Assembly (NCBI GenBank): GCA_001774685.1
Contig: MFAS01000001.1
Span: 479,557-543,556 of the forward strand
Direction of reading: 5' to 3'
DNA length: 64,000 bases
From: Candidatus Collierbacteria bacterium RIFOXYD2_FULL_45_13
Lineage (GTDB): Bacteria; Patescibacteriota; Microgenomatia; UBA1400; MFAQ01
Shown: one piece after another, positions 3,177 through 57,992 of the stretch
Numbering within the stretch: position 1 is the first letter of the stretch
Layout: each line of letters opens with the position of its first letter
Notes under the pieces: model-generated
Database searches by the model: none
Told to the model about the DNA's origin: nothing
What the model saw: only the letters and a program-made list of their open reading frames with translations
Position numbers and translations under genes: made by a program

Positions 3177-3177
3177 A

Positions 3178-4143: not shown

Positions 4144-4152
4144 AATAGAATT

Positions 4153-4725: not shown

Positions 4726-4802
4726 TGTGCCGCACTCCCAGGTCTATTGTTTATCCTAACAATCCATCTTATAATTGCCACATTGAATTTTATCTTACAA
4801 AA

Positions 4803-41492: not shown

Positions 41493-43157
41493 ATGCTCAG
41501 TCTTTTGAAGAAACACTGGTCCTTAATTTTCCTGTTGGTTATCCTCACCGCTAGCTCAGTCCTCAAGGTGCTGGAGGTTAGTCGCTATAATTTTCCTTTT
41601 ACCACCGACCAGGGCCGAGACATGGTGGATATGCGCCACATGGTCGTCACTCACACCCCTCGTTTGGTCGGTCCCACTACCAGTATCAATGGCGTCCTTC
41701 TGGGACCATTCTGGTATTACTTCAATATAATTCCTTTTGTTACCGGGGGAGGCGATCCGTCGTACATAGTCTACTGGCAGATACTCTGGTATCAGCTTTC
41801 GGTAGTTGCTTTATGGTATGTCTTGAAGAAGAACCACCCCTCACTGGCGATCTTAGTCTCTGTTTTACTACTTCTAATGCCCACTGGCTTTAACACCGCC
41901 AGATATTTTTGGAACGCCAACTCAATGGTCTTTTTTACTATTTTTTATTTTGCTTCCTTTCTTTGGTCTTTGGTTGCTTACAAATCCGAAACACTCCACG
42001 CGTCATTGCGAGGAGGTATTCCGACGTGGCAATCTCACACCACGAAGTTATTCATGCTCGGTCTTATCTCCGGCTTGGCCATGCAGATCGAAGCAGCCTT
42101 CGGCATTCTTTTCTTCCCCTTCGCCTTTCTCTATTTTGTGATCTCCTCGTGGCCGCGCGGCATGGCATGGTGGAAATCCATCAAAATTATTTTCAAACAA
42201 ACTCTCCCCTTGGTTGCCGGCTTTGGCCTTACACTACTTCCACAAATCCTCTTCGAACTCAAACACGGTTTTATCATGACAAAAATTCTCTTTGGAGAAT
42301 TTTCCGGCCAAGGCACTATGCTCGGAGAAAAAATTACTTTTGCCGAAAAATTGGCTCAGCGTTGGGAGCATTTTCAACTATTAATTCTCCGTTCCACCCA
42401 TCTGCCACCAAACTATGTTCCCTATTTATATCTTTCTGCCTTAGCTTTATTCTTATATCTCTATGTCACCTCCAAAAAATCAAAGTCAGAGGCTATCAAG
42501 CTTTGGTGTATTTCTTATTGGTTCATCTTATTTGCCGCTGTGTTTTATCTTCTCTTTCCTCAGAAGCTCAAGGAGTGGTATACCCTTGGACTTTCAGTTC
42601 CACTGGTGTTATTTCTTGGGTGCCTTCTGAGCTACCTTTGGGAGAGAAAATCCGTCATTCTCAAGACATTAATAATTGTTCTCATGAGTATGACGGTTTA
42701 TTACTCGCTTAAGTCTCAGTGGGACTACACCCGCGACGTTGCCTTCAAGCCTTCAGATGACCGTAGTAATATGAGAAACGAAATTGCCGCCCTTGACTGG
42801 GTCTATCAAAACGCCGAAGGCCAAGGGTTTAAAGTCTATAGCTACCTACCCTCTGTCTATGACTATCCATACAATCATCTCTTCTGGTGGTACGGCAACC
42901 ACAAATATGGCTACGAGCCCGTCGAAACAGCTTATTTACCCGGTCAGCCGGAATATATTCGGGACGTTGATAAAATCTGGACCAACAAGAGAGAACTAGG
43001 TTCTCAAGAGTTAGTTTTTCTCATCATCGAAGAGGATATGGATATGCCCAAAAGGACAGAAGCTTGGTTAGGAAACTTTTCGAAGCTCTGCCTACTCAAA
43101 GAGCAAGTTTTTCCCTGGCACGCCTCAGTCCGCCTGCTGTCTCCGTGTTCTAAATAG
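41493..43157 (+). CDS. PMT/ArnT-like GT-C glycosyltransferase (divergent, DQ loop)
   Basis: It has an N-terminal TM, then RYNFPFTTDQGRDMVDMRH and more than 11 TMs. Confidence 0.65.
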   Translation: MLSLLKKHWSLIFLLVILTASSVLKVLEVSRYNFPFTTDQGRDMVDMRHMVVTHTPRLVGPTTSINGVLLGPFWYYFNIIPFVTGGGDPSYIVYWQILWYQLSVVALWYVLKKNHPSLAILVSVLLLLMPTGFNTARYFWNANSMVFFTIFYFASFLWSLVAYKSETLHASLRGGIPTWQSHTTKLFMLGLISGLAMQIEAAFGILFFPFAFLYFVISSWPRGMAWWKSIKIIFKQTLPLVAGFGLTLLPQILFELKHGFIMTKILFGEFSGQGTMLGEKITFAEKLAQRWEHFQLLILRSTHLPPNYVPYLYLSALALFLYLYVTSKKSKSEAIKLWCISYWFILFAAVFYLLFPQKLKEWYTLGLSVPLVLFLGCLLSYLWERKSVILKTLIIVLMSMTVYYSLKSQWDYTRDVAFKPSDDRSNMRNEIAALDWVYQNAEGQGFKVYSYLPSVYDYPYNHLFWWYGNHKYGYEPVETAYLPGQPEYIRDVDKIWTNKRELGSQELVFLIIEEDMDMPKRTEAWLGNFSKLCLLKEQVFPWHASVRLLSPCSK

Positions 43158-45380
43158 TGCTATCAAAGTAAGAAAGGCGCTAACTATGCTTATCTTTAAC
43201 CCCAGCCAAAAGCTGGCTGGCTGATAGTCAAAAACCACCTCTCCACTTTCATCTGTCAAATTAAGGCAACGAAAAATACTGTTACATTTTTCAATGTTTA
43301 CTTCTTTATTGTTTACAAAAGCTTTCCAGTCCGGGTACCAGGTGTCAGCTAACAACAGCGTTTTATTGGCGCCATCACTGTAGGTAATCTTTATCGTATT
43401 CGGGGTATAGGAGGTGATCTTTATTTCTCCGTCTTCATCACCCACATATCTGGCCCTGGGTTGGTAATCCAAGTTCTCCAGTACGGCCGTGGCTTCCGAT
43501 TCGTAAACCTTTTTCCATCTTTTTTGGTCAATAGAGTAGGTAATGTTGTTGCCTCCCAATTTACCCACAGAATCCCTTTTAACGGCCAGCAGATATTTAA
43601 CGTTAAAGTTACCCAGTGCTTTCGAGTCATATCTTTCCAGTTCCGAATATCTTCCAACCTGTCCACTCAGATTGCCATTTATTTCCTCCTGATAGGCCTT
43701 AGCGTAGTCCTTAATCGCCATTGGGTCATATCCAGATGGACTCATGAAACGGTACTGCATCCAGGTCGCCGGTGGCATAACCTCCGCTCTTTCTCGATCA
43801 ATTCTGAAGACTTCTGTTTTGGCTTTCTCTTTCAAAAAGGTGATTACCGGGGTATCGGGGTAGACGATTCTTTCCGGCACAAAAGGAATGTACTTCCAGC
43901 CAAATCGGAACATTTCCAAACAAATCACCACTATCAGCACACCGGTCAAGCCCTTCCATTTCTTTGTCAAAAGGAATATCAGTGAATAGAGACCGACAAA
44001 AGCACCGGGTAAAATCAGGTTCCTCATGGTTACGGCTCGTCTCTGGGCTAATAGCATATTGGGATTATTGGGCGACAGGAGTATCTCATCGGTAAAACGA
44101 GCTAAGTAATAAATGGTCACGTAGGCCACACTAAGCACCCCGACAGTGAAAACTATTTTCTTAAAGCTAATCTTTTCCAGGTTGGACAAAACAATTCCCG
44201 ATAAAACAGCCAAGCTCATGGAGAAGATCACTGCTATCCGGCCAGCAGCGCTGGTCGACAGCCCGGGTACGTTAAAGGTATAGACGGCCTTCCCGAGTGG
44301 TGTATCGAAGCCAAACAAAAAGGCGATGATTGCGGTCACCACGAAGAATCGGACATATTTATTGGATCTAAATAGAAAAAGAGACAGAACAAAACAGAAA
44401 ACCGCTAATACACCGGTATAAAAGATCGCTTCATGATAATTGAAGACTCCAAAAAAGTTTCCTGTAGCCGGGTTGCCAAAATAATCAGGCGCTATTAAGG
44501 TAGTTAAGTATTTTATGGGTAGCAAGCCGTAATTGTATCCAGAGATATAATTTTCGACCGATCTCAGGCCATATTTAGTTAGTTCCAGAGTCGGTAACAT
44601 TTGAAAGGCGGCCAACCCGAGCGTCAGTAGTCCGGGAATAATGGTCGCTAAGATCAGCTTAAAGTGCTTTTCCTCCAACCATTTCCAAACAAAATAGAAA
44701 ACCGTCAACACTGAGATGTAGACCATTATCTGGAAATGTCCTGAGGTAATCAGCAAAAAGAAGATAATCGGTAGGGAGAAAAGATAGTAAGTCTTTTTCG
44801 AATCGAAGAATTTTTCCAAAACAATAAATATTAATGGCATCCAGATCATGGCATGAGCCGCGGTTACAAACTGGGCCCAGCTGATGGCAAAGCCGGAATA
44901 AGCATATATTAGGCCACCTACCACCGCTCCAACAGTCTTTACTTTTATTTGACGGAGATATAAATACATGGTGATGGCAGTGGCAAACGCAGGCAGGACC
45001 ACCAAAAAGTCCCAGCCCTTAATATCTCCCAGCAGGAGGTACAGAAAGCCAAGTGGATAAAATGCACCTGAGTGAAAATTAGCCATCAAAGGGTAACCTG
45101 AATACGAGAACGGATTCCAAAGAGGGATCTGTAGATGTCTCCATGATTCGGCCACCAAACTTTTCCACATATAGAACTGTGAAAAGATATCCGATATCAG
45201 TGGGTTTTTTACCGGCACACCGGTGGGGAACCCCCATTTGTTTTCCAGCCAAGGCAGATAGGCCCCCACCATCAGGTCTCCGGGGAAGGGGACATCACCC
45301 CTAAAAAACACCTTCCAATAATAAACCAGACAAGCAACAGCAAATACCAAAAACGGCCAAAACTTTAATATCTTTTTCAT
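43125..45380 (-). CDS. YfhO-like GT-C membrane glycosyltransferase
   Basis: It is 751 aa, with the N-terminal loop FPGDLMVGAYLPW...WNPFSYSGYPLMANFHSGAFYPL typical of the YfhO family, at least 13 TMs and a C-terminal soluble domain. It converges on the upstream + gene with a 33-nt overlap. Confidence 0.55.
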   Translation of the reverse strand: MKKILKFWPFLVFAVACLVYYWKVFFRGDVPFPGDLMVGAYLPWLENKWGFPTGVPVKNPLISDIFSQFYMWKSLVAESWRHLQIPLWNPFSYSGYPLMANFHSGAFYPLGFLYLLLGDIKGWDFLVVLPAFATAITMYLYLRQIKVKTVGAVVGGLIYAYSGFAISWAQFVTAAHAMIWMPLIFIVLEKFFDSKKTYYLFSLPIIFFLLITSGHFQIMVYISVLTVFYFVWKWLEEKHFKLILATIIPGLLTLGLAAFQMLPTLELTKYGLRSVENYISGYNYGLLPIKYLTTLIAPDYFGNPATGNFFGVFNYHEAIFYTGVLAVFCFVLSLFLFRSNKYVRFFVVTAIIAFLFGFDTPLGKAVYTFNVPGLSTSAAGRIAVIFSMSLAVLSGIVLSNLEKISFKKIVFTVGVLSVAYVTIYYLARFTDEILLSPNNPNMLLAQRRAVTMRNLILPGAFVGLYSLIFLLTKKWKGLTGVLIVVICLEMFRFGWKYIPFVPERIVYPDTPVITFLKEKAKTEVFRIDRERAEVMPPATWMQYRFMSPSGYDPMAIKDYAKAYQEEINGNLSGQVGRYSELERYDSKALGNFNVKYLLAVKRDSVGKLGGNNITYSIDQKRWKKVYESEATAVLENLDYQPRARYVGDEDGEIKITSYTPNTIKITYSDGANKTLLLADTWYPDWKAFVNNKEVNIEKCNSIFRCLNLTDESGEVVFDYQPASFWLGLKISIVSAFLTLIALFRTRRQQAD

Positions 45381-45444
45381 CTTTCACAATTATATCTCTT
45401 AGAATATTAGTCTAGTACCAATGTACCCTTTAACCGGTCTAAGC

Positions 45445-45473
45445 TTGCCACACTGATATAGAAGTTGTAAAGT
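45445..45473 (+). promoter_or_regulatory. Putative sigma70 promoter of DUF4256 gene (TTGCCA -17- TAAAGT)
   Basis: The hexamers are spaced 17 nt apart, and the -10 ends 9 nt before the ATG at 45483. Confidence 0.35.
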
Positions 45474-45482
45474 AAAAAAACC

Positions 45483-46043
45483 ATGTCTCACCCAACACTT
45501 TCTGCGGACCACCGCAAAGAACTACTCGGGATCCTGAAAACCCGTTTTGAAAAAAATCCAAAGCGTCACATGGGTATTGAATGGGAAAAAGTGCTAGGCA
45601 GGTTGGAAGCCAATGCCGAAAAGCTTTGGTCTCTAAATGAGATGGAGAGAACCGGCGGTGAGCCAGATGTTGCCGGGCAAGACGCAAAGACCGGCGATTA
45701 TCTTTTTTACGATTGTTCGGCCGAGTCGCCCAAAGATCGCCGAAATGTCTGTTATGACCATGATGCCCTGGAGGCAAGGAAAACCTTTAAGCCCAAAGAT
45801 AGTGCCACGAATATTGCTTCAGTGATGGGTATCGAACTTTTGACGGAATCGCAGTATCGGGAGTTACAGAAACTTGGAGCATTTGATACAAAAACTTCAA
45901 GCTGGTTAAAGACCCATGCCGATATCAGGAAGCTCGGTGGAGCTGTCTTTGGAGACCGTCGCTACGATACTGTCTTTGTGTATCACAACGGAGCAGAGTC
46001 TTACTATGGTTCAAGAGGTTTTCGTGGCTGTCTAAGAATTTGA
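45483..46043 (+). CDS. DUF4256-family protein
   Basis: It is 186 aa and carries the strongly conserved LWSLNEMERTGGEPDV...YLFYDCSAESPK...RYDTVFVYHNGAESYY blocks that I recognise as DUF4256 (function unknown). Confidence 0.55.
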   Translation: MSHPTLSADHRKELLGILKTRFEKNPKRHMGIEWEKVLGRLEANAEKLWSLNEMERTGGEPDVAGQDAKTGDYLFYDCSAESPKDRRNVCYDHDALEARKTFKPKDSATNIASVMGIELLTESQYRELQKLGAFDTKTSSWLKTHADIRKLGGAVFGDRRYDTVFVYHNGAESYYGSRGFRGCLRI

Positions 46044-46079
46044 TGGGCTCACTTTTGGTTCCACCTATCCCATAACAAA

Positions 46080-46133
46080 TTGACACTTGCCTTGTCTGGG
46101 TGTAAAATACGGCAAGCACAATAACATTGGAGG
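46080..46133 (+). promoter_or_regulatory. Canonical sigma70 promoter (TTGACA -17- TAAAAT) plus GGAGG Shine-Dalgarno for TIR-like gene
   Basis: TTGACA is at 46080..46085 and TAAAAT at 46103..46108. GGAGG is at 46129..46133, 7 nt before the ATG at 46141. Confidence 0.5.
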
Positions 46134-46140
46134 TTAAAAT

Positions 46141-46644
46141 ATGAATATAGTTAGTAGTATCTCTCAGGCTCTTGGAGAGCTGAAGTTCCCCAAATGCAAG
46201 ATCTTTGTTCTTAACGCCTCTTCGGATGACAGACTCGCCTGGGAAATGATTGCGATGTTCCGTCGGCATGGCATTCTTTGCTGGGACAGTCAAAATTCCT
46301 TGATGCCTGGTAGCGACCGACATAATGAACAGGAAAAAGCCATGTACGAAGCCGATTTCATTGTTGCCATCTTTTCGCGAGGTTCTCAGAGTGCCGAAGG
46401 CAGATATGCCAAACTCTTGAAGGTTGCCTTCGATGCTCAGTTAGAGAAATTAGACGGCGGTATCAAACTGATTTCTATCCTGGTTGAGACATGCGATCTT
46501 CCGTATGAATATAAAAAGTATCTTCCGCTAGACATGTCAGAGCCAGACAGCGCAGAAAAAATAATCAGATCCTTTCAGTACGAGTATGCGCGCCGTACTC
46601 GGCTGAATATTAAACCCACCAAGCCTCAAGCCATCTGGCTGTAA
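46141..46644 (+). CDS. Standalone TIR-like domain protein
   Basis: Its secondary-structure-ordered motifs match TIR/TIR_2: betaA KIFVLNASSDD, alphaA RLAWEMIAMFRRHGI, betaB LCWDS, BB-loop LMPGSD, betaC FIVAIFSRGSQSAEGRY and betaD LISILVETCDLP. Confidence 0.5.
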   Translation: MNIVSSISQALGELKFPKCKIFVLNASSDDRLAWEMIAMFRRHGILCWDSQNSLMPGSDRHNEQEKAMYEADFIVAIFSRGSQSAEGRYAKLLKVAFDAQLEKLDGGIKLISILVETCDLPYEYKKYLPLDMSEPDSAEKIIRSFQYEYARRTRLNIKPTKPQAIWL

Positions 46645-46706
46645 CATCAAAAGTCCTCGATAAACGATCGGGGGCTTTTCTTATGTCCTGATATACTTTA
46701 GGCAGG

Positions 46707-47582
46707 ATGAAACCAACTGTCGATGTCATTATTCCCAGCTTCAACGGCAAGTATCTGCTGGAAAAACATCTCCCCAAGGTCATTCGATACACCGAATATC
46801 TTAATAAAGTGATCATTATCGAAAACGGGAGTACCGACGAGACTATCCCTTGGCTCCAAAAGAACTTTCCGGAGGTGGTTGTTGTCAAAAACAATTCCAA
46901 TCTCGGCTTTACTAAGCCGGTTAATCAGGGGGTTGCCGTTTCCAAATCAGACTACCTCATACTTCTAAATAACGATGTTGAGCCCAAAAAGGATTATCTA
47001 AAAAATATCTTTGACTACTTCAAAGACGAGATGGTTTTTGCCGTTTCCTTTAACGAAGACGGTTCCTCATGGCCATTGGTTTCCTGGCACGATGGCAAGC
47101 TTCAATTCATCAGAGGAGTGGACAAGGCTCAGCCAATGTATTCGGCTTGGGCCTCAGGCGGTAGTGGCATCTTTCGCCGGAGTATCTGGGACAAGTTGGG
47201 CGGACTAAACGAAATCTATGCACCTTTCTACTGGGAAGATATCGGTATTGGTTACCGGGCCTGGAAAATGGGTTACAAAATCATTTGGGACAACCGCTCT
47301 ATTGTGTATCATCAGCATGAATCCACCGCCAACAAAATCAACCAAAATTATGTCAAACTTATCAGGCAAAGAAACGAGCTCCTATTCAATTGGATAAATA
47401 TCACCGACAAAGACTTACTCAGATCTCATTTATACTTCCTCATTCGACATTCTTTAAGACATCCCCGCTACCTTCAGGTGATCTTCGCGGCCTTGTTTAG
47501 ACTGCCACAAAACCGACAAAGCAAAGATTTTGTCATATCTGACAGTGAAGTCTTAAGTAGAGTCAACAAAAAATATGAATAA
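46707..47582 (+). CDS. GT2 glycosyltransferase
   Basis: It has the VIIPSFNGKYLL...VIIIENGSTDET...LNNDVEP motifs. Confidence 0.75.
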   Translation: MKPTVDVIIPSFNGKYLLEKHLPKVIRYTEYLNKVIIIENGSTDETIPWLQKNFPEVVVVKNNSNLGFTKPVNQGVAVSKSDYLILLNNDVEPKKDYLKNIFDYFKDEMVFAVSFNEDGSSWPLVSWHDGKLQFIRGVDKAQPMYSAWASGGSGIFRRSIWDKLGGLNEIYAPFYWEDIGIGYRAWKMGYKIIWDNRSIVYHQHESTANKINQNYVKLIRQRNELLFNWINITDKDLLRSHLYFLIRHSLRHPRYLQVIFAALFRLPQNRQSKDFVISDSEVLSRVNKKYE

Positions 47583-49683: not shown

Positions 49684-50388
49684 ATGCCAAAAATCGGCCT
49701 CTTAGGCATTCTCTATCTTTTCTTAGTACCCTTTATTGTCTTTTCTGGGCAACCGCCTTTTCTTCTCTTTCTCTCTTTATTGCTTGGCTATCTGCTTTAT
49801 TGTCTTTTCCAAAAACCATCTCTCAGTCAATTTCTTATTTTCCTGGCAATCGTCGTCCTTGCTCTCATCATTCTCAGGCCACATCTTGGTCTTGATATGG
49901 GTTTACTAAATGCTATCAATTCCCAAAGAGGGGAACACCCAGATTTTCAAAACAGTATTATCTCTCGTCTCGTTCATAACAAGTCGGAACTGGCCCATTC
50001 TTTTATTTCCAATTTCAATAAACTTTTATCACCGGTAGCCATTTTTGCTTCAGGATTTTGGCACTGGCTCGATCCATATTATCCACTGGGTTATCTTTTT
50101 CCGTGGGATATCTATTTTATTTATCGCTATTTTCGAAATACCCATCAAGGCAAAACTAACAGCAATCTAGCCTTTTTTGTTCCAGCCCTAAGCATTCTCC
50201 TCTTAGTCACCGGTTTGATCTATGTGGACCAAGCCATTGTCTTCAGTTTTGCCATTCTCTTTTTTCTCGCCTTACTTTCAGTTATTGGCTACTCCACCAC
50301 TTCGAAAAAAAACCAACTCGGTTTCCTGGTTGCCAACATCGTTTATCTTCTATACCAGCTAAATATCACTGCCTACTTTAAGTTATGA
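49684..50388 (+). CDS. Integral membrane hypothetical protein
   Basis: It is 234 aa with at least 6 TMs, and it overlaps the downstream gene by 4 nt. Confidence 0.35.
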   Translation: MPKIGLLGILYLFLVPFIVFSGQPPFLLFLSLLLGYLLYCLFQKPSLSQFLIFLAIVVLALIILRPHLGLDMGLLNAINSQRGEHPDFQNSIISRLVHNKSELAHSFISNFNKLLSPVAIFASGFWHWLDPYYPLGYLFPWDIYFIYRYFRNTHQGKTNSNLAFFVPALSILLLVTGLIYVDQAIVFSFAILFFLALLSVIGYSTTSKKNQLGFLVANIVYLLYQLNITAYFKL

Positions 50389-52067
50389 CCAAACAGAGAA
50401 TCTTATTTTGGGTCATCATCCTCGTTATCATCTTTTTTACCCGTTTTTATCGGCTGACAGAGTATCCTCCACATCTAACCATAGATGAAGTCTCCATTGG
50501 TTATAACGCTTTTTCTATTTTGAAAACTGGTAGAGATGAGTGGGGAACCCCCTTCCCTGTCTCGTTCCGTTCAGTAGGGGATTACAAGGCTCCCGTTCTC
50601 GTTTATCTCACCATTCCTTTTGTTTGGCTTCTGGGTCTAAACGAGTTGAGTGTGCGGCTTCCGGTGGCCATCTTCTCCGCCTTCAACGTTTTTTTGGTTT
50701 GGTATCTCATTCGTCGTCATATCTTTGATCACAAATACTCCTACTTGTCTTACCTCGCCGCCATTATTTTCTCGCTATCACCTTGGTTAACGATCTTTTC
50801 TCGCTCCGGTTTCGAGGCTGTTATTGCCCTTACTTTTTTGTTGGCCAATGTCCTCTTTGCCTTTGAGTTTCGAAAGTCAGGATATCTAATCCACTTCTTT
50901 TATATGTTTGTCTTTGCTTATCTCTCGGCAATTGCCTACCACTCCACCAAGATTGTTGTTCCTCTGCTGAACCTTTTCTTTATTTTGACCAACTACCATT
51001 TCTTTCTTAATTGTGTCACCGGGTGGTATGCCCGGAAAAAGTTTACCTTTCTGTTCGCCATCCTTCTCTTAGTCGGTGTTACTGTCTTTTTTCTCCAAAA
51101 CTTTATACTCGGACCCGGTGCCTCCAGAGCCGGCATGACCTTTCTATCAAAAGATTACGACTTTACCAATGGTCTTCTGCCGAAGTTTTCTGGCCATCCC
51201 ATGGCTTCACTTACCTCCACCGTCGGCCTCGCTGGTTTATGGTTCAAAAGATATCTGGAATATTTTTCCGCCAATTTTTATCTTTCAAACGGCCTAGGCC
51301 TAGCGACACCCGGGCACCCCGGGCAAGGAGTGATCTTTGCCGTTGAATACCCCTTTCTAATCATTGGATTCTTTATCTTACTTTTTGGTCGCCGTTTCTT
51401 TGCTTCTTCCGTTTCCCATTATTTTGTCACCACCATTCTCACCGGCTGGTTTTTCTTCTCTTTATTACCGGCCTCAATTACCAACAATAGCCAGCACGCT
51501 TTACGGACTCTAAACATCGTCCCGGTAATCTCTATCCTTATTACCATAGGGTTTATTTATTGTTTTGAATTTTTCCGATCGAAACTAGCTAAGTCTCTCT
51601 TGGTTTCTTTTGTTATCCTTGGCTATCTATTCGGTCTCATCAGATTTACCGATTACTACACACTTCATTACCCAATTGAGCTTTCGGAAACCCGTTCCTA
51701 TGGCTGGAAACAAATCGCTATTTTTGCCAATGACCATTACACGGAGTATGACCATGTTTATGTCGATCCTCAGTTTGGGACTCAAGGTCCCTACACTTAC
51801 GGCGTACCCTATTTGTATTTCCTATTCTACTCACGGTACGACCCTAATCTATACAATTCCGATCCTCGCCGGAGACTTGGCGGTAGTGACTTTGAAAATT
51901 ACCTTTTTACGCCAATCAACTGGCCAGACCTCGACCACAGTCAAAATAATTTATACATTGCCAGCCCCTGGAGTCTCCCCAAAGAGATGATCGGATCTTC
52001 CCGACAAAAATACTACGTACCATTTCTCAATCAATCCTCAGGCTTATATGTCGTTTCCGATCGATAA
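50385..52067 (+). CDS. PMT/ArnT-like GT-C glycosyltransferase
   Basis: It has RFYRLTEYPPHLTIDEVSIGYNAFSILKTGRDEWGTPFPV. Confidence 0.75.
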   Translation: MTKQRILFWVIILVIIFFTRFYRLTEYPPHLTIDEVSIGYNAFSILKTGRDEWGTPFPVSFRSVGDYKAPVLVYLTIPFVWLLGLNELSVRLPVAIFSAFNVFLVWYLIRRHIFDHKYSYLSYLAAIIFSLSPWLTIFSRSGFEAVIALTFLLANVLFAFEFRKSGYLIHFFYMFVFAYLSAIAYHSTKIVVPLLNLFFILTNYHFFLNCVTGWYARKKFTFLFAILLLVGVTVFFLQNFILGPGASRAGMTFLSKDYDFTNGLLPKFSGHPMASLTSTVGLAGLWFKRYLEYFSANFYLSNGLGLATPGHPGQGVIFAVEYPFLIIGFFILLFGRRFFASSVSHYFVTTILTGWFFFSLLPASITNNSQHALRTLNIVPVISILITIGFIYCFEFFRSKLAKSLLVSFVILGYLFGLIRFTDYYTLHYPIELSETRSYGWKQIAIFANDHYTEYDHVYVDPQFGTQGPYTYGVPYLYFLFYSRYDPNLYNSDPRRRLGGSDFENYLFTPINWPDLDHSQNNLYIASPWSLPKEMIGSSRQKYYVPFLNQSSGLYVVSDR

Positions 52068-52091
52068 CGAATATAATTCTATTAGACTAAC

Positions 52092-52907
52092 ATGAAGAAT
52101 CTAATTTTTTGGACATCCACCATTCTCATATTTGTCTTCTGGCCGTTTTCATTTGTTCTTTCGAATCGGTCCGACTCGGTCATCTTTATCCTCGCTGCCT
52201 TAGTTTTGTTGGTGGACCGGTTTCTTTATCTTCGGAAGTACCAATATCACTATTTTACTTACCTGGTTTTGCCGTTACTTCATCCGGCCTACTTATTCTT
52301 TCCGATAGTCGCCATTCTTTTTTACTGGTCTGATATCAAAAAAATGTCTCTGGTTATTTACGCCGTATTCTTGATATTTATCTCCCTGTTTTCCTGGCAA
52401 TCCTTTTACGCCTACTCCATCTTTACTCCCGATCCGCTAGCCTTCGACACTCTAAACAAAAAAATCTCCCTTATTCCGAACAGGAACCTTGCCCGAATCT
52501 TTCACAACAAAACCGACCTTTTTCAGGATAAATTCAAGTCAAACGTTTTAACTTCTCTAGATCCAAACAACTATTTTTTTGCTCTTCACCCTCGGGAAAT
52601 TTTTGAAAACCAAAATCTCCACAAGTTCCCCTTCTTGGCCATAGTTCTCTTCTTGATTGGACTCTATCTCTTGATCAAGAGCCAGGATAGACTGTGGATA
52701 GTGTCTACACTCTTAGCCGGAATATTTTCCATTGCTCTGATCAATAATCAAGACAAGTTCGATCTGATTTTATATCTGCCCATCGCTCTCATCTGTTTAA
52801 TTGGCTTGAGAAAAATCTTTACTCTTTGCCAAGCATATTACCTTATTTTTTCCTTTCTCTTCTTACCTCTATCAATTATCGAACTGGCTCGCATAATCTT
52901 TAGATAA
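52092..52907 (+). CDS. Integral membrane hypothetical protein
   Basis: It is 271 aa with at least 7 TMs, and sits immediately upstream of the PMT-like tandem array. Confidence 0.35.
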   Translation: MKNLIFWTSTILIFVFWPFSFVLSNRSDSVIFILAALVLLVDRFLYLRKYQYHYFTYLVLPLLHPAYLFFPIVAILFYWSDIKKMSLVIYAVFLIFISLFSWQSFYAYSIFTPDPLAFDTLNKKISLIPNRNLARIFHNKTDLFQDKFKSNVLTSLDPNNYFFALHPREIFENQNLHKFPFLAIVLFLIGLYLLIKSQDRLWIVSTLLAGIFSIALINNQDKFDLILYLPIALICLIGLRKIFTLCQAYYLIFSFLFLPLSIIELARIIFR

Positions 52908-54581
52908 ATGAAGTTCTCGCATAAATATCTGCCGACCATTCTCATACTATTTGCTTTCTTGATTGGAGCTTTCTTCCGTTTTTACAAACTGGGGGAAACC
53001 CCCATAGGCCTCTATGTGGATGAAGCTTCACTTGGCTACAACGCCTATTCTGTCTACAAAACCGGCCTGGACGAATACGGTAAAAGTTTTCCTGTGATGT
53101 TCCGCTCCTTTTCCACCTTTCAGAGCCCAATATATTCTTACCTTCTGATTCCTGTTATTCACTTTCTGGATCTATCAATTTTTTCGGTGCGGCTACCCTC
53201 AGCCTTGTTCGGAGTTCTTACCATACCCTTAATTTATTTACTCGTCCGCCAACTTGCACCTCGCACTAAATACTTCGCACCAATCTCCGCCTTTCTCCTC
53301 GCAATTTCCCCGTGGCATATCAACTATAGCCGTACTGCCTATGAAGCAAATGTGGCCTTGTTTTTCTTGTTGCTGGGTTCCCTCTTTCTTCTAAATGCTC
53401 TCAAAAAATCTTGGTTCTTTCTCCCCGCCGCTTTATCATTCGTTATCTCCATGATGGCTTATCGGGCGGAAATAATCATCGTGCCGCTACTGGTCATCAC
53501 TTTCGCCCTTCGTTTTTCTGGCACAATCCTAGCTGAATCAAAACGGTATGCGTTACCCATCTTTATCAGTCTGGTCTTAGCCTTCGTCATTTTTTTTCCG
53601 ACTCTTCAAATTATGGGGACGCCGGGTTTCCAGGCCAGATCTTCTGTCCTCAATATTTTTGCCACCTCAGGACAACGTCCTTGGGGTGTTGGTGAAGGGC
53701 AGGGTCTGGTCCATGCTTTCACAAACAATCCTCAGATATTGGCAATCAGAGAGTTTCTCTCGCTATATAGTTCCTATCTGTCTCCTCGGTATATGTTTTC
53801 ACTTGGAGATTCTGGGCCTCGTCTGCCTTATCCCGGTATGGGCACCTTTTTTGTTTGGCAGTTTCCGCTTTATTTAATCGGTTTATATTTTTTGATCAAA
53901 GAGAAACAGCTGAAAGAGCTTACCTTCTTTATTTTCACCTTTCTCCTAGCCTCTCCCATTCCAGCCGCTCTTACCAGAGATCCATACTCCACACTTAGAT
54001 CACTTCCTTTAGTTATACCGCAGATACTGATTATTTCTTTTGGTTTGGTTAAACTCTGGGAACTACTTCCCTCCCTTTCTTCAAAAATGAAGTATTTGGT
54101 AGTTATCTTTGCCGTCAGTTTTTCCTCGGTCAGAATGTTCATCTCTATTTTCTACTTTAATGATTATTTCAACTCCAAGTTCTGGAACTACGGCTGGGAA
54201 ACAGTAGCCAAGGAAATTAAAGAGCTAGATCCCAGACTTCCGGTGGTGGTCGATAGTTCCCGCGGAGACAGCTATATCCTGATGATGTTCTTCCTTAAGT
54301 ACGACCCCTCCCTCTATCAGCGAGATAACTTTGAAGTCTCACCAGCAGAGTACTACACCAGCCTCACTAGAAAAGAGTCTAAAAATTTAGGAAACATTAC
54401 CATCAAGAGTATTGTCTGGGGTCCGGATACCGACGAGACAGAGCAGTTCTTGGTGGCAGATTATTTGGCCATGTCGGAAGTTCAGATTGATGCCCACAAT
54501 TTGACTATAATCAAAGAGATACCCTTCCCAGACGGCAAGGTGGCCTTGAGGATATTAAAAACAAATCCAAAGCGAAAATGA
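52908..54581 (+). CDS. PMT/ArnT-like GT-C glycosyltransferase (tandem array member 1)
   Basis: It has RFYKLGETPIGLYVDEASLGYNAYSVYKTGLDEYGKSFPV and an ISPWH loop. Confidence 0.75.
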   Translation: MKFSHKYLPTILILFAFLIGAFFRFYKLGETPIGLYVDEASLGYNAYSVYKTGLDEYGKSFPVMFRSFSTFQSPIYSYLLIPVIHFLDLSIFSVRLPSALFGVLTIPLIYLLVRQLAPRTKYFAPISAFLLAISPWHINYSRTAYEANVALFFLLLGSLFLLNALKKSWFFLPAALSFVISMMAYRAEIIIVPLLVITFALRFSGTILAESKRYALPIFISLVLAFVIFFPTLQIMGTPGFQARSSVLNIFATSGQRPWGVGEGQGLVHAFTNNPQILAIREFLSLYSSYLSPRYMFSLGDSGPRLPYPGMGTFFVWQFPLYLIGLYFLIKEKQLKELTFFIFTFLLASPIPAALTRDPYSTLRSLPLVIPQILIISFGLVKLWELLPSLSSKMKYLVVIFAVSFSSVRMFISIFYFNDYFNSKFWNYGWETVAKEIKELDPRLPVVVDSSRGDSYILMMFFLKYDPSLYQRDNFEVSPAEYYTSLTRKESKNLGNITIKSIVWGPDTDETEQFLVADYLAMSEVQIDAHNLTIIKEIPFPDGKVALRILKTNPKRK

Positions 54582-56281
54582 AATTCAAAAACATCCTTAG
54601 CCGATACTGGCCCCTTCTTTTAGTTCTTCTTCTGGGCGCCACTCTCAGACTCTATGGCTTACTTCAAAATCCAATCAGTCTATTTTCCGATGAGGTGGAC
54701 ATTGGTTATCAAGCATATTCCTTTTTATCCACTGGCAAGGATTATCAGGGGAACTGGCTACCTTTACAATTCCACTCCTTCTCCGACGTTCGTACGGCTT
54801 TACCCATCTACGCGACAGCTCTCGTCTCCCTCATCCCCAATGTGAGTTTGGATCTAGCCATTCGTCTTACGCCAGCTATCTTCGCTATTCTCGGCCTACT
54901 GGTAATCTATTTTTTGGCCAATAACATTTCCGAGCTGTTTGGACTTGGTGCCCGTGGCAATCTACTTTCTCTCGGTTTCTGGTCTACACTGATTTTATCG
55001 GTACTCCCTTGGCACTTCACTTATTCACGGATTGGTTTCGAACTTTCTATGCTAATTACGTTTTATCTGTTGGGTTTATTTTTCTACACACATTTCTTAA
55101 TCCACAATAGAGTCTGGGCTTTCATAGTCTCTTTGATATTGTTTTCGCTCACTCCCATGATTTACAGCACAGCCAAGCTTGCTCTGATATTTGTTCCTCT
55201 GACTTTATATATCCTTCCCGGTGCCAAAGAACTTTTGTGGGGTAAGAAGATCTCCCTTTGGCTTCTGCTACTGTTTATACCGCTCGGTTTTATTTTTATA
55301 AACGGAGGCGCGGCTCAACGTTTCAGTGAGATATCCATTTTTACGGACCCCACGACTCCCACCGAAATTAATTTTTTAAGAAAAGAGGACTTGGGTCCGC
55401 AGGCCCCTGTTGGATCACAGACCAACTTCTTTAGTAAAGCCATCCACAACAAAGTCATTTATCCTCTGGATGTTTTTCTAAAGAACATAGTAAGACCTCT
55501 TTCTTTTGACTATCTTTTTCTTCAGGGAGACACCAACCCCAGACATGCGGTTCAAGGCTGGGGCATGATGGAAAAAGCCCTCATTATTCCGCTTCTATTT
55601 GGTCTCTACAAGTTGGCTGAAGGCAAGCAAAAAAGGTTCCTCGTTTTTCTTTTCATACTAACGGTTGCCGCTATTATTCCTTCCGCTCTGACTCGAGATG
55701 GCGCCACCCATTCCTCTAGAACGTTTATGCTTATACTGCCTTTGGTCTTGGTCACCTCCTTTGGTTTTTATAATCTTTTTTCATCTTCGAGGTGGTTGGC
55801 TCTTTTGATTTTCTTGATGCTTCTGGTAGACACTTCTTACTACCTTCATGACTACTGGTCCCATTATCGGTACACGTCAGAGAGGTCTTGGAGTGCCGGC
55901 ATGAAAGGATTGATGGAATCAGTTGGTAAACACCCTGATCAGCCGGTAACTATCTCTCCAAAGTACGAGTATCCACTCATCTTCTATTTGTATTACACCC
56001 GCTTAGATCCACGAAAATTCCAAGCTTACTCCCAAAACCATACTGTTTATAACTCTACCTCAGGAAACTTTAACCTGGATGGCAACCGGATCGGGGACTC
56101 CAATTTCTACATTGCTTCGCTGGTGGATTACAAAAACAAACCTTCCGCATTATTACCAAACGCAGTTTATTACCTCACCAGGTCCGAGGTTGACACCAGT
56201 GCAATTGGTTCTGTGGCGACGATCGATGACATTATTAGTTTGCCCTCCGGCGAACCACTTTATTATGAACTCCATTACTAA
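54578..56281 (+). CDS. PMT/ArnT-like GT-C glycosyltransferase (array member 2)
   Basis: It has RLYGLLQNPISLFSDEVDIGYQAYSFLSTGKDYQGNWLP and an LPWH loop. Confidence 0.75.
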   Translation: MKFKNILSRYWPLLLVLLLGATLRLYGLLQNPISLFSDEVDIGYQAYSFLSTGKDYQGNWLPLQFHSFSDVRTALPIYATALVSLIPNVSLDLAIRLTPAIFAILGLLVIYFLANNISELFGLGARGNLLSLGFWSTLILSVLPWHFTYSRIGFELSMLITFYLLGLFFYTHFLIHNRVWAFIVSLILFSLTPMIYSTAKLALIFVPLTLYILPGAKELLWGKKISLWLLLLFIPLGFIFINGGAAQRFSEISIFTDPTTPTEINFLRKEDLGPQAPVGSQTNFFSKAIHNKVIYPLDVFLKNIVRPLSFDYLFLQGDTNPRHAVQGWGMMEKALIIPLLFGLYKLAEGKQKRFLVFLFILTVAAIIPSALTRDGATHSSRTFMLILPLVLVTSFGFYNLFSSSRWLALLIFLMLLVDTSYYLHDYWSHYRYTSERSWSAGMKGLMESVGKHPDQPVTISPKYEYPLIFYLYYTRLDPRKFQAYSQNHTVYNSTSGNFNLDGNRIGDSNFYIASLVDYKNKPSALLPNAVYYLTRSEVDTSAIGSVATIDDIISLPSGEPLYYELHY

Positions 56282-57992
56282 AAATCGACCACTCCTCTTC
56301 CTCTTTTTGTTCACCTTGCTCGGTGGTCTGCTCCGTTTTTGGAAATTAGACTCCTTTCCCGTTTCCCCAAACTGGGATGAAGCAAGTCACGGTTATAACG
56401 CTTTCTCGATTTTATTGACTGGCAAGGACGAATGGGGGGTCAGACTTCCTCTAATTTTTCGAGCCTTTGGTGATTACAAGCTACCTCTATATATCTACCT
56501 CACTGCTATACCTGTTTGGTTATTCGGATTAACCACCTTTTCGGTCCGCTTCATTTCTGCCTTGGCCGGCACTCTTGCCATCCCAGGCATTTACTTATTA
56601 ACCCGTGAGCTCTTTTCTCCATCACCAACCACTTCGCACTCCGCACCTCGCACTAACTACTCACTTTTCTCCGCTCTCCTCTTGGCCCTTTCTCCCTGGC
56701 ACTTTTTCATTTCCCGCCCGGCTTTGGAAGCCAACCTTTCTCTTACCTTAATCATTTTCGGCTTCTATTTCTTACTTAAATTCTTCCACTCAATTTCTCG
56801 CACCAATCACTACGCACTAATCACTTCTGTGGTTCTTCTCGGTCTCTCTCTCCATACTTACAATACGGCACGAGTCTTCGTGCCCTTACTCGTCATCGCG
56901 TCGTTTCTTATTTTTCGCCCCTCGTTCCGTGCACTTCGCACTCCGCACCTCGCACTAATAAGTTCCACCTTTCTTGCCCTTCTTTTCTCCGGTCTGGTTA
57001 TCTTTCAAGTATTTCTTGGTGCTGGTACCGCCCGTTATGAGAAACTCAAGATACTTTCTCCGGCCACTGTCTTCCAAATAGGGGAACAGAGAGCCCACAG
57101 CACTCTTAGTCCGCTCATCTCCAAATTAGTCCATAACCGCCCCATCTATTTCTTATCTGCTTTTACCAAAAATTATCTTGGATATTTCTCGCCACAATTT
57201 TTTTCTCAGCAATGGGGAGCCCAGTTCCAATTCGCCATTCCCGGTCAAAGTCTCTTAACTCTCCCCATCTTTCTTCTTGCTCTTCTCGGTTTTTCATTAC
57301 ACCTGCCGTCACTACGAGGTTCCTGGTCTTCGTTAAAATTCCTTTACGCTTGGTTACTTCTTTCCCCAGTAGCGGCCAGTCTTACTATCGACCCTCCCCA
57401 GGCACTCCGTCCGAATCCCATGATCCCGGCCATCATTATTTTTGCGGGTCTTGGTTTGTCTTGGCTGTTGACTGTTATTCCTGCCAAATTCATTAAACTC
57501 TTTACGATACTACTAGTACTATGGATCGGTGTCTCTTTTGGCTATTATCTCAGACAGTATTTTGGGAGCTATGCCTTGACGTATTCTTCTTCCTGGCAAT
57601 ACGGCTACGCCGAAGCCATGAACTTTGTTAAGGATCATCGGAATGAATATGATCGTGTTTTTATTACCAAACGTTTCGGAGAACCACACATTTTCTATGC
57701 CTTTTTCAATAGAGTTTCTCCACTATCAATACAACCAGGTGGGGACAATATTCGTTTTCAAAAATCGGATTGGTACTGGACGGATAAGATAGATAACATC
57801 TATTTCATCAATGATTGGCAAATTCCGGTCACTTCCATCAAGACTCTTCCTTTGGAGAGTGGGGGAGAGGTATCAACCCAAAAGAGCCTCTTAATTACTT
57901 CTGCCGGTCATGTCCCTGTCAACGCCCATGTCATTAAGACAGTCAATTTTCTCGATGGATCCCCAGCGTTTATAATTACCTCAGTACCTTAG
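56265..57992 (+). CDS. PMT/ArnT-like GT-C glycosyltransferase (array member 3)
   Basis: It has RFWKLDSFPVSPNWDEASHGYNAFSILLTGKDEWGVRLP. The ATG at 56265 is used because the ORF-track N-extension overlaps the upstream gene in another frame. Confidence 0.7.
   Translation: MNSITKNRPLLFLFLFTLLGGLLRFWKLDSFPVSPNWDEASHGYNAFSILLTGKDEWGVRLPLIFRAFGDYKLPLYIYLTAIPVWLFGLTTFSVRFISALAGTLAIPGIYLLTRELFSPSPTTSHSAPRTNYSLFSALLLALSPWHFFISRPALEANLSLTLIIFGFYFLLKFFHSISRTNHYALITSVVLLGLSLHTYNTARVFVPLLVIASFLIFRPSFRALRTPHLALISSTFLALLFSGLVIFQVFLGAGTARYEKLKILSPATVFQIGEQRAHSTLSPLISKLVHNRPIYFLSAFTKNYLGYFSPQFFSQQWGAQFQFAIPGQSLLTLPIFLLALLGFSLHLPSLRGSWSSLKFLYAWLLLSPVAASLTIDPPQALRPNPMIPAIIIFAGLGLSWLLTVIPAKFIKLFTILLVLWIGVSFGYYLRQYFGSYALTYSSSWQYGYAEAMNFVKDHRNEYDRVFITKRFGEPHIFYAFFNRVSPLSIQPGGDNIRFQKSDWYWTDKIDNIYFINDWQIPVTSIKTLPLESGGEVSTQKSLLITSAGHVPVNAHVIKTVNFLDGSPAFIITSVP
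56630..56958 (+). repeat. Exact 27-nt direct repeat CACTTCGCACTCCGCACCTCGCACTAA (56630..56656 and 56932..56958) inside one PMT-like gene
   Basis: The two copies are identical and lie 302 nt apart, so they are read in different frames (TSHSAPRTN versus ALRTPHLAL). Degenerate relatives occur at about 56796..56825 and in the paralog at 53256..53281. Confidence 0.7.

What the first reader, a model, noticed from the sequence alone, without database searches (positions are those of the whole stretch)
45381..46706. Two-gene DUF4256 and TIR-like insert with E. coli-style expression signals inside the glycosylation locus
Two small cytoplasmic proteins sit between convergent glycosylation genes, each behind its own -35/-10 pair. 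The TIR-like gene also has a perfect GGAGG Shine-Dalgarno 7 nt from its ATG, whereas almost no other gene in the window has one, which argues for foreign origin. Prokaryotic TIR domains are best known as NAD-consuming effectors or signal generators in antiphage systems such as Thoeris and CBASS. A minimal 167-aa TIR paired with a DUF4256 protein is not a described system as far as I know. The canonical TIR catalytic Glu is not obviously aligned, so activity is uncertain.
Basis: partly seen in the sequence, partly recalled or inferred. Interest (0 to 1): 0.65.

Follow-up and report, generated by a model that had tools for sequence, protein, structure and literature searches.

The report
Hypervariable stand-alone TIR gene beside DUF4256
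The two genes are real (a DUF4256 protein and a small TIR-domain protein) but they are separate, self-contained gene cassettes in a shuffling-prone gap of a Collierbacteria (CPR) cell-envelope cluster, not a two-gene system. The interesting part is the TIR gene, which lacks the usual catalytic glutamate and is swapped between very different versions in near-identical genomes.

Summary
Both ORFs are real: 45483..46043 is a full-length DUF4256 protein (E 7e-86), and 46141..46644 is a TIR_2 domain (36 bits against a cut-off of 28; AF2 pLDDT 88; Foldseek hits SPARTA, MAL, MyD88 and SARM1 TIRs). The GGAGG Shine-Dalgarno claim holds: it is the only one among 55 genes, in a genome that looks mostly leaderless. 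The flanking genes are divergent, not convergent, and composition is native. The pair is not an operon. In a sister Collierbacteria genome the same two cassettes sit in reverse order with two genes between them. Six other TIR lineages lack DUF4256. None of 78 DUF4256 loci shows a member of this TIR subfamily within 5 kb, and none of the 150 immediate neighbours gave a recurrent TIR_2 hit. One distant CPR lineage does have TIR directly followed by DUF4256, so a loose link is not excluded. The TIR belongs to a small family of 150-175 aa stand-alone proteins found so far only on CPR-type contigs. In every locus it carries its own promoter, leader, SD and terminator. In three clades with conserved flanks (up to 96% identity) the TIR alleles are only 26-35% identical, which indicates allele replacement, as seen in conflict genes. 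The canonical catalytic Glu (SPARTA E77) aligns to Lys91. A family-specific Glu86 is common but not universal, so NADase activity is uncertain. No partner defence genes occur in the window.

The parts
45440..46050 (+). DUF4256 cassette. This DNA block is homologous, as a unit, to L002:9670-10283 (87% identity).
   Evidence: blastn
45445..45473 (+). Weak sigma-70-like site TTGCCA-17-TAAAGT, ending 9 nt before the DUF4256 ATG. This is the near-leaderless style typical of this genome.
45483..46043 (+). DUF4256 (PF14066) protein, 186 aa. It is ultra-conserved: 70-77% identical to homologues in Acidobacteriota, Bacteroidota, Bacillota, Chloroflexota and DPANN/Nitrososphaeraceae archaea.
46066..46691 (+). 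TIR cassette (promoter, leader, CDS, terminator). It is homologous, as a unit, to L002:7926-8552 (73% identity).
   Evidence: blastn
46080..46108 (+). TTGACA-17-TAAAAT promoter-like site, 11 of 12 positions. It is the only match of this quality in the window and is conserved in L002, L006 and L090.
46113..46126 (+). Leader motif CAAGCACAATAACA. It is identical in L002 and in L094, whose TIR is only 36% identical. The leader is predicted to be unstructured.
46129..46133 (+). GGAGG Shine-Dalgarno sequence, 7 nt before the ATG. An SD is present in 9 of 9 TIR loci, against 0 of 54 other genes in the window and 12 of 99 other genes in the related loci.
46141..46644 (+). Stand-alone TIR-domain protein, 167 aa. 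Family invariants are D29, W48 and P56-G57 (BB loop). The canonical catalytic position is K91. E86-G87 is invariant in its own clade.
46649..46684 (+). Intrinsic terminator: a 13-bp hairpin (-16.5 kcal/mol, z -3.95) followed by CUUUUCUU. Equivalent hairpins follow the stop codon in all nine TIR loci.
43125..45380 (-). yfhO-family membrane protein, forming the conserved left border of the variable slot (88-91% identical in L002 and L098).
46707..47582 (+). GT2 glycosyltransferase, forming the conserved right border of the slot (83% identical in L002).

Best explanation
The interval holds two independent single-gene cassettes. They sit in a recombination-prone variable slot between yfhO (-) and a GT2 gene (+) in the envelope-glycosylation cluster of a Candidatus Collierbacteria (CPR) genome.

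Cassette 1 encodes DUF4256. This is an extremely conserved, patchily distributed protein of unknown function. It has no conserved neighbour elsewhere and is expressed from a native-style, near-leaderless promoter.

Cassette 2 is a complete monocistronic unit: promoter, unstructured leader of about 25-30 nt, GGAGG, CDS and terminator. It encodes a 167-aa stand-alone TIR protein from a small family that I found only on CPR-type contigs. The TIR gene is the fixed resident of the slot. Its coding sequence has repeatedly been replaced by very divergent alleles (26-35% identity) in otherwise near-identical backgrounds. That is the pattern expected for a gene under diversifying or frequency-dependent selection in a biological conflict.

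Inferred mechanism (not shown): the protein acts on its own as a self-associating TIR. Once triggered, for example by phage infection, it cleaves NAD+ or a related nucleotide, like an abortive-infection module. Because the canonical alpha-C glutamate is Lys91, catalysis would have to use the clade-invariant Glu86 in the EG[RE][YF] motif just before alpha-C.

My probabilities:
- about 0.7 that the two genes are independent cassettes;
- about 0.6 that the TIR is a conflict gene;
- only about 0.3-0.35 that it is an active NAD+/nucleotide-cleaving enzyme.
For: Shown:
- Domain identities.
- TIR fold: pLDDT 88.4, pTM 0.85. Foldseek probability is 1.00 to SPARTA TIR-APAZ, Hydra TRR-2, MAL, MyD88, TLR1, SARM1, BtpA and RUN1.
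- The family profile finds 7,697 TIR proteins at E<=1e-3, but only about a dozen clusters share the stand-alone architecture of about 170 aa.
- Cassette boundaries, and the swapped order relative to L002.
- Flanking proteins in window, L002 and L098 are 73-93% identical (yfhO 88-91%), and DUF4256 in window and L002 is 88%. The TIR is 69% (window vs L002) and 31% (vs L098), and is inverted in L098.
- L007 vs L103: flanks are 92-96% identical (dS 0.06-0.28) and promoter and terminator DNA are conserved, but the TIR is 31% identical.
- In the clade that shares OpgC/HhH-GPD synteny (L005, L006, L090, L092), TIRs are 27-35% identical except for one pair at 64%. Both TIR subclades occur in that clade and in Collierbacteria.
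- In all 9 loci the TIR gene has a -10 box, a leader, GGAGG or AGGAG, and a hairpin plus T-run. An SD occurs in 9 of 9 TIR genes, against 12 of 153 other genes.
- Other SD-led small cassettes share the slots. One is a 122/123-aa protein that is 72% identical between two CPR clades. In L090 the slot also holds an OLD/GajA-like ATPase, a resolvase and a NUDIX protein resembling PADLOC PDC-S07.
- DUF4256: 78 loci show no conserved neighbour. None has a member of this TIR subfamily within 5 kb, and TIR_2 is not recurrent among the immediate neighbours.
Against: - TIR and DUF4256 are adjacent again in an independent lineage (L090, 56 nt apart). They also lie in the same slot in L002. That is more than chance would easily give if DUF4256 is rare in CPR.
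- The window has no terminator between DUF4256 and the TIR, so read-through co-transcription is possible here.
- Between the window and L002 alleles, dN/dS is 0.16. This is the highest in the region but far below 1, so the conflict inference rests on allele replacement and not on positive selection.
- The canonical catalytic Glu is absent, and no acidic residue in that region is universal. E86 or E88 is missing in P0134 and P0276, which argues against a conserved NADase.
- PADLOC finds no hit for the TIR, and no defence genes lie in the 64 kb window.
- The family is small: about 9 distinct loci were examined.
Confidence: 0.6

Rival explanations
1. One reading: DUF4256 and the TIR form a two-gene antiphage system. 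DUF4256 would sense infection, or process the TIR product, and the TIR would consume NAD+ or make a signal.
For: - Both genes lie in the same slot in the window and in L002.
- They are directly adjacent (TIR, 56 nt, DUF4256, then NUDIX) in L090, whose TIR is only about 28-30% identical and whose DUF4256 is only 61-63% identical to the window's proteins. This suggests an independent association.
- The L090 slot also carries defence-type genes.
- The window has no terminator between the two genes.
Against: - Order, spacing and orientation are not conserved.
- In L090 a terminator separates the two genes and DUF4256 has its own -10 box.
- Six TIR lineages lack DUF4256.
- None of 78 DUF4256 loci has this TIR subfamily within 5 kb, and TIR_2 is not recurrent among their immediate neighbours.
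- DUF4256 is 70-77% identical across phyla, whereas the TIR alleles fall to 26-31%. A specific protein partner would be expected to co-vary.
- PADLOC gives no hit.
Confidence: 0.12
2. Neither gene is involved in conflict. The TIR is a non-immune, housekeeping-like nucleotide or nucleoside-processing or regulatory protein of CPR bacteria, which depend on salvage. DUF4256 is a separate nucleotide 'house-cleaning' enzyme. They share a slot only because small accessory metabolic genes accumulate there.
For: - The TIR occupies a fixed chromosomal position in three CPR clades.
- It is under purifying selection, dN/dS 0.16-0.19.
- It lacks the NADase Glu, and no partner or defence genes lie in the window.
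- DUF4256 is translationally coupled to dut, downstream of two nrnA genes, in Mycoplasmopsis, and is followed by a NUDIX gene in L090.
- DUF4256 neighbours elsewhere are small detoxification or metabolic genes: OmdA, DUF1801, GNAT, VOC, SnoaL.
Against: - Housekeeping genes are not replaced by alleles 31% identical between strains whose flanks are 92-96% identical.
- The TIR is the only leadered, SD-driven gene in a largely leaderless genome, and it shares its slots with mobile and defence genes.
- The family is very rare: the word-index searches found about a dozen clusters (5 with the single protein; 11 full-length members with the family profile).
Confidence: 0.18
3. The TIR is a host-directed effector, like Tcp/BtpA, used by the episymbiotic CPR cell against its bacterial host. 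Its alleles would diversify to escape host countermeasures.
For: - Hypervariable alleles.
- Location within an envelope, pilus and sortase gene cluster.
- Foldseek matches include the Brucella effector BtpA.
- From background knowledge, CPR bacteria live attached to hosts.
Against: - By reading the sequence, I see no signal peptide, secretion motif or carrier domain in the 167-aa protein.
- In other clades the gene is not near envelope genes in any consistent way.
- This reading is purely inferential.
Confidence: 0.08

Closest known systems
TIR domain of SPARTA TIR-APAZ (short pAgo systems; e.g. PDB 8z92, 8isy, 8qlp)
   Same: These are the best sequence and fold matches in the PDB: profile E 5e-8 to 4e-5 and Foldseek E 7e-5, TM about 0.58. 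The alignment runs through alpha-C and shares the E-G pair that precedes it (SPARTA E72-G73 = E86-G87).
   Different: There is no APAZ domain and no Argonaute partner. SPARTA's catalytic E77, whose E77A mutant lacks NADase activity (PMC9097488), aligns to Lys91 here. Sequence identity is only 17-20%.
Thoeris ThsB and other bacterial TIR-only proteins (AbTir, PdTIR, BtpA/TcpB)
   Same: These are small cytoplasmic proteins consisting essentially of one TIR domain. PdTIR (3h16) and AbTIR (8g83) match the N-terminal half of the profile.
   Different: PADLOC ThsB models do not hit. No ThsA, SIR2, SLOG or Macro partner lies in the 64 kb window. Alignments to PdTIR and AbTIR stop before alpha-C, so the catalytic region diverges. 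This family has extra N-terminal (residues 3-11) and C-terminal (137-154) helices and a conserved C-terminal Trp166.
Non-catalytic animal adaptor TIRs (MAL, MyD88, TLR1, Hydra TRR-2)
   Same: Foldseek TM is 0.54-0.61. Like them, this protein lacks the alpha-C catalytic Glu while keeping the BB-loop Pro-Gly used for TIR-TIR assembly.
   Different: This is a bacterial single-domain protein with no receptor or death domain. Whether it acts as a scaffold is untested.
Pfam DUF4256 (PF14066)
   Same: The match is full-length, E 6.9e-86, with 73-77% identity to homologues from many phyla.
   Different: Nothing differs: this is an ordinary member. The family itself has no known function, no solved structure and no literature.

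Membership tests
TIR domain (Pfam PF13676 TIR_2) | HMM score above the curated gathering threshold | tested here: met
   36.3 bits against a cut-off of 28, E 9.3e-9, profile positions 1-116 of 122. The family profile hits 2,085 proteins at E<=1e-10.
TIR domain (Pfam PF13676 TIR_2) | Flavodoxin-like alternating beta/alpha fold that superimposes on solved TIR structures | tested here: met
   AF2 pLDDT 88.4, pTM 0.85, with elements bA-aA-bB-aB-bC-aC-bD-aD-aE. Foldseek probability is 1.00 to SPARTA, TRR-2, MAL, MyD88, SARM1 and RUN1 TIRs, TM 0.5-0.6.
TIR domain (Pfam PF13676 TIR_2) | BB-loop Pro-Gly after beta-B | tested here: met
   W48, P56 and G57 are invariant in 17-22 family members.
Catalytic (NADase) TIR subclass | Glutamate in alpha-C, equivalent to SPARTA E77 / SARM1 E642 | tested here: not met
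   The HMM alignment places CrtTIR-APAZ E77 opposite K91. Positions 90-95 hold no conserved acidic residue in the family. The role of E77 is taken from PMC9097488.
Catalytic (NADase) TIR subclass | NAD+ cleavage activity | not testable with these tools
   This needs a biochemical assay. E86 (or E88) is a candidate substitute, present in 20 of 22 members.
Thoeris | A ThsB-type TIR together with a neighbouring ThsA (SIR2 or Macro/SLOG) effector | tested here: not met
   PADLOC gives no ThsB or ThsA hit for the TIR or for any of the 55 window proteins. The Pfam survey of the window shows no SIR2, SLOG or Macro domain among the families listed.
CBASS / Pycsar TIR effectors | TIR fused to a signal-sensing domain (SAVED, STING, cNMP-binding), with a cyclase gene nearby | tested here: not met
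   The 167-aa protein is filled by the TIR domain plus two short helices. The SAVED_TIR hit has E 0.026 over 60 residues only. No cyclase is present.
SPARTA | TIR fused to APAZ and encoded next to a short pAgo | tested here: not met
   There is no APAZ region (167 aa against about 450 aa) and no Argonaute in the window.
DUF4256 (PF14066) | Full-length HMM match above threshold | tested here: met
   286.7 bits against a cut-off of 27, profile positions 1-173 of 173.
Two-gene operon or system (DUF4256 + TIR) | Adjacency and gene order conserved across lineages | tested here: not met
   The genes are adjacent in the window and L090 but in opposite order. In L002 two genes lie between them. DUF4256 is absent from six other TIR lineages. 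None of 78 DUF4256 loci has this TIR subfamily nearby.
Two-gene operon or system (DUF4256 + TIR) | Co-transcription and physical or functional interaction | not testable with these tools
   The separate promoters and the TIR terminators are predicted, not measured.

The most novel reading that the evidence does not exclude
The stand-alone TIR family (found here only on CPR-type contigs) is a new kind of single-gene immune or antagonism module. It would be a TIR that has lost the canonical alpha-C glutamate. It would work either through a relocated catalytic Glu (the EG[RE][YF] motif) or without catalysis. It would be kept as a promoter-to-terminator cassette whose coding part is exchanged between CPR lineages under frequency-dependent selection. 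Its slot would serve as the anchor of a small CPR 'island' that recruits accessory cassettes such as DUF4256, the 122-aa protein, a methyltransferase and a NUDIX protein. Some of these could modulate its nucleotide chemistry.
Probability: 0.25. Interest if true: 0.65.

Novelty: new variant of a known kind. Interest (0 to 1): 0.4.

Why it matters
CPR bacteria have tiny genomes and few recognisable defence systems. A conserved yet allele-swapping single-domain TIR would give a concrete handle on how these episymbionts handle phage or host conflict. A TIR family without the canonical glutamate could also help separate the scaffolding and catalytic roles of bacterial TIR domains. In addition, the analysis removes a tempting but unsupported 'new two-gene defence system' call. 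It also flags DUF4256 as one of the most strongly conserved proteins of unknown function (about 70% identity from Bacillota to DPANN archaea), which deserves study in its own right.

Tried and rejected
- PADLOC, NCBIfam and PHROGs scans of both proteins gave nothing significant.
- Literature searches for DUF4256 and PF14066 found no relevant paper; the PF14066 hits are Plasmodium gene IDs.
- The AF2 model of DUF4256 is poor (pLDDT 64.6). Foldseek against the PDB gave no match below E 1, and the profile search against PDB sequences gave none below E 0.36.
- Alignment A2 was too diverse for the search for related loci.
- The metagenome scan with A1 recovered only the known P0002 loci. The viral-contig scan found no TIR relative.
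- GC, GC3 and codon-usage tests for foreign origin were negative.
- I considered whether the unannotated 185-aa (L006) and 174-aa (L007) neighbours of the TIR are cryptic DUF4256 proteins. They have no Pfam hit and no BLAST relation to DUF4256.
- I considered a structured regulatory leader. The leader is predicted to be unstructured, and Rfam finds nothing in the window.
- Residue-level 3D placement of E86 was not possible, because model coordinates are not exposed.
Full report
**Observation**

The interval contains two + strand ORFs, 45483..46043 (186 aa) and 46141..46644 (167 aa).
- The first matches Pfam DUF4256 end to end (E 6.9e-86).
- The second matches TIR_2 above the curated threshold (36.3 against 28 bits).
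- The proteins occur with exactly these sequences in Candidatus Collierbacteria bacterium RIFOXYB2_FULL_46_14, a CPR/Microgenomates genome, and on a 257-kb JGI contig with the same gene order.
yfhO (43125..45380) is on the minus strand and the GT2 gene (46707..) on the plus strand, so the two genes occupy a divergent gap.

**Expression signals**

- GGAGG lies at 46129..46133, 7 nt before the ATG. It is the only SD core of 5 nt or more at proper spacing among the 55 genes of the window.
- By contrast, 22 of 55 genes carry a TATAAT-like box ending 0-16 nt (mostly 6-11 nt) before the start codon, against 8% of random positions. The genome therefore looks largely leaderless, and the TIR is its one clearly leadered, SD-driven gene.
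- TTGACA-17-TAAAAT at 46080..46108 matches 11 of 12 positions and is the only such match in the 64 kb window. About 1.2 are expected by chance, so its position and conservation are the evidence, not its count.
- The DUF4256 site at 45445..45473 matches 9 of 12 positions and ends 9 nt before the ATG, which is the native style.
- A 13-bp hairpin (-16.5 kcal/mol, z -3.95) followed by a U-run comes directly after the TIR stop codon. No hairpin separates DUF4256 from the TIR, and the TIR leader is unstructured.
- GC, GC3 and codon usage of both genes lie within 1.3 sd of the other genes.

**Are the two genes a unit?**

No, on the evidence available.
- The sister Collierbacteria genome (L002-L004; TIR 69% and DUF4256 88% identical) has this order: yfhO, TIR, methyltransferase, a 93-aa gene on the minus strand, DUF4256, a 123-aa gene on the minus strand, a 165-aa gene, GT2.
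- blastn resolves the window into four blocks: the yfhO end, a DUF4256 cassette (45440-46050 = L002 9670-10283, 87%), a TIR cassette (46066-46691 = L002 7926-8552, 73%, including promoter and terminator) and the GT2 start. The order of the two cassettes is swapped between the genomes.
- A third Collierbacteria lineage (L093, L098-L100) has a methyltransferase and an inverted TIR next to yfhO, and no DUF4256 within 8 kb.
- TIR homologues in L005, L006, L007/L103, L092 and L094 have no DUF4256 nearby. Their unannotated neighbours are not cryptic DUF4256 proteins.
- From the other side, I examined 78 DUF4256 loci from Acidobacteriota, Bacteroidota, Bacillota, Chloroflexota, Myxococcota, Cyanobacteria and archaea.
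  - No conserved neighbour emerged; the largest neighbour cluster has 5 members.
  - No locus has a match to the TIR-subfamily HMM within 5 kb.
  - The Pfam spectrum of the 150 immediate neighbours is dominated by small accessory genes (OmdA/YdeI, DUF1801, GNAT, DoxX, VOC, SnoaL and methyltransferases), and TIR_2 is not among the recurrent families.
- The one observation in favour of a link is L090/L091. There a TIR only about 28-30% identical is followed, after its own terminator and 56 nt, by a DUF4256 gene (61-63% identical, with its own -10 box) and then a NUDIX gene.
- That slot also contains a resolvase and an OLD/GajA-like ATPase-TOPRIM (PADLOC E 2e-28), and its NUDIX protein resembles PADLOC candidate PDC-S07. 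It is evidently an integration hot spot.
- I therefore read the recurrence as co-location of circulating accessory cassettes. I retain about 12% for a true functional pair.

**The TIR protein**

- The AF2 model is confident (pLDDT 88.4, pTM 0.85) and has the canonical TIR element order plus an N-terminal helix (3-11) and a long C-terminal helix (137-154).
- Foldseek returns only TIR domains at the top: SPARTA TIR-APAZ, Hydra TRR-2, MAL, MyD88, TLR1, SARM1, BtpA and RUN1 (probability 1.00, TM 0.5-0.6).
- A profile of five close homologues finds 7,697 proteins at E<=1e-3 among 1.8 billion representatives. Only about a dozen clusters share the stand-alone 150-175 aa architecture.
- Family invariants are D29, W48 and P56-G57 (BB loop); A67, S79, I111, P121 and the C-terminal W166 are nearly invariant.
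- In the HMM alignment to CrtTIR-APAZ, the catalytic Glu77 (E77A abolishes NADase activity; PMC9097488) falls opposite Lys91. SPARTA E72-G73 aligns with E86-G87.
- Alignments to PdTIR and AbTIR end before alpha-C.
- No acidic residue is conserved at positions 90-95. E86 is invariant in the window's own clade. In several clade-B members an E at position 88 takes its place, but P0134 and P0276 have neither.

**Evolutionary behaviour of the TIR gene**

- Every one of the nine loci examined has the same unit: a -10 box, a leader of about 25-35 nt, GGAGG or AGGAG 5-8 nt before the start, and a hairpin plus T-run right after the stop.
- This also shows that the database start codons of P0003 and P0277/P0288 are called too far upstream.
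- An SD occurs in 9 of 9 TIR genes, against 12 of 99 other genes in these loci and 0 of 54 in the window. The other SD-led genes are mostly the small genes sharing the variable slot.
- A leader motif, CAAGCACAATAACA, is identical in the window, in L002 and in L094, whose TIR is only 36% identical.
- The TIR alleles are far more divergent than their surroundings:

| Comparison | Flanking proteins | TIR identity |
|---|---|---|
| Collierbacteria: window, L002, L098 | 73-93% identical (yfhO 88-91%) | 69% (window vs L002); 31% (vs L098) |
| L007 vs L103 | 92-96% identical, dS 0.06-0.28; promoter and terminator DNA conserved | 31% |
| OpgC/HhH-GPD synteny clade: L005, L006, L090, L092 | flanks 42-87% identical | 27-35%, except one pair at 64% |

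- The family splits into two subclades, and both occur in Collierbacteria and in the OpgC-synteny clade.
- Between the two close alleles (window vs L002), dN is fourfold that of yfhO, and dN/dS is 0.16, the highest locally but clearly purifying.
- The pattern is therefore replacement of the coding sequence inside a fixed cassette, not runaway positive selection. Such allele replacement at a fixed locus is typical of conflict genes.
- A 122/123-aa protein that is 72% identical between L002 and L006 shows that other slot cassettes also move between CPR clades.

**Context**

- The window is a large envelope-glycosylation cluster, with nine GT2, seven PMT_2, yfhO, GT87 and type IV pilus genes and a sortase.
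- It has no ThsA, SIR2, SLOG, cyclase, Argonaute or other partner. PADLOC gives three marginal, unrelated hits among the 55 proteins.

**DUF4256**

- The word-index search returned 8,000 scored hits, which is its candidate cap. The listed homologues are 73-77% identical to the query and come from many bacterial phyla. The genome scan added DPANN and Nitrososphaeraceae archaea at 70-76% identity. Mean column identity in a 27-sequence alignment is 77%.
- The family is rare on plasmids (14 records) and in phage records (2).
- In Mycoplasmopsis gallopavonis its start overlaps the stop of dut, downstream of two nrnA genes. In L090 it precedes a NUDIX gene. These are weak hints of a nucleotide-related role.
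- There is no literature, no solved relative and no usable model.

**Verdict**

- The interpretation as a two-gene TIR system is not supported.
- What is present is an ordinary DUF4256 gene next to an unusual TIR: a stand-alone protein lacking the canonical catalytic Glu, found here only on CPR-type contigs, carried in a promoter-to-terminator cassette, and subject to allele replacement.
- I classify it as a new variant of a known kind, with moderate interest (0.4).

Noticed in passing
whole window (e.g. 13907, 20400-21035(-), 28779, 35989, 37057, 43125-45380(-), 52092, 57993): 22 of 55 genes have a TATAAT-like box ending 0-16 nt (mostly 6-11 nt) before the start codon, against 8% of random positions. 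None except the TIR has an SD of 5 nt or more. The genome appears to use mostly leaderless or near-leaderless mRNAs.
   Followed up: partly
L007:8001-8507 vs L103:1418-1867: Two contigs have flanking genes 92-96% identical (dS 0.06-0.28) but carry TIR alleles only 31% identical. The promoter and terminator DNA around them is conserved, so this is a clean replacement of the coding sequence.
   Followed up: yes
L002:10472-10843(-) and L006:9583-9951(-): An unannotated 122/123-aa protein is 72% identical between two different CPR clades. In both it lies 1-2 kb from the TIR and is SD-led. It has no Pfam or PADLOC hit.
   Followed up: partly
L090:6001-12382: The gene order is TIR, DUF4256, NUDIX (PADLOC PDC-S07, E 2e-12), large serine resolvase, a 263-aa protein, and an OLD/GajA/AriA-like ATPase-TOPRIM (E 2e-28). 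This is a defence or mobile island abutting the TIR in a distant CPR lineage.
   Followed up: partly
L102 (Mycoplasmopsis gallopavonis NZ_LR215032.1) 2262-5531: The gene order is nrnA, nrnA, dut, DUF4256, and the DUF4256 start overlaps the dut stop. This hints that DUF4256 acts in nucleotide metabolism.
   Followed up: no
window 45483-46043 vs L010-L089: DUF4256 is 68-76% identical between this CPR bacterium and Acidobacteriota, Bacillota, Chloroflexota, Cyanobacteria, and Micrarchaeota, Iainarchaeum and Nitrososphaeraceae archaea. That is exceptional conservation for a protein of unknown function. Its dS between the window and L002 (0.52) is lower than that of neighbouring genes (0.9-1.0).
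   Followed up: partly
L003:5099-5640 and L004:5213-5640: An IS200/IS605-type Y1 transposase sits at the 3' end of yfhO. The DNA further left differs between two contigs of the same sample (FemAB genes in one, a ribosomal protein operon in the other), which points to rearrangement at this border.
   Followed up: no
L005:8001-8537; L098:8001-8627: The database start codons of the TIR homologues P0003 and P0277/P0288 are too far upstream. The true starts (TTG at L005:8031, ATG at L098:8118) follow a GGAGG, giving proteins of 168-169 aa.
   Followed up: yes
window 43125-43157: The 3' ends of the 554-aa gene (+) and of yfhO (-) overlap convergently by 33 nt. The same overlap is seen in L098.
   Followed up: no
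window 50385-61336: The window holds seven PMT_2-type membrane glycosyltransferase genes, most of them in a tandem series of 557-637 aa paralogues in this stretch, plus nine GT2 genes, type IV pilus ATPase and platform genes and a sortase. This is an unusually large envelope-glycosylation region for a small genome.
   Followed up: no
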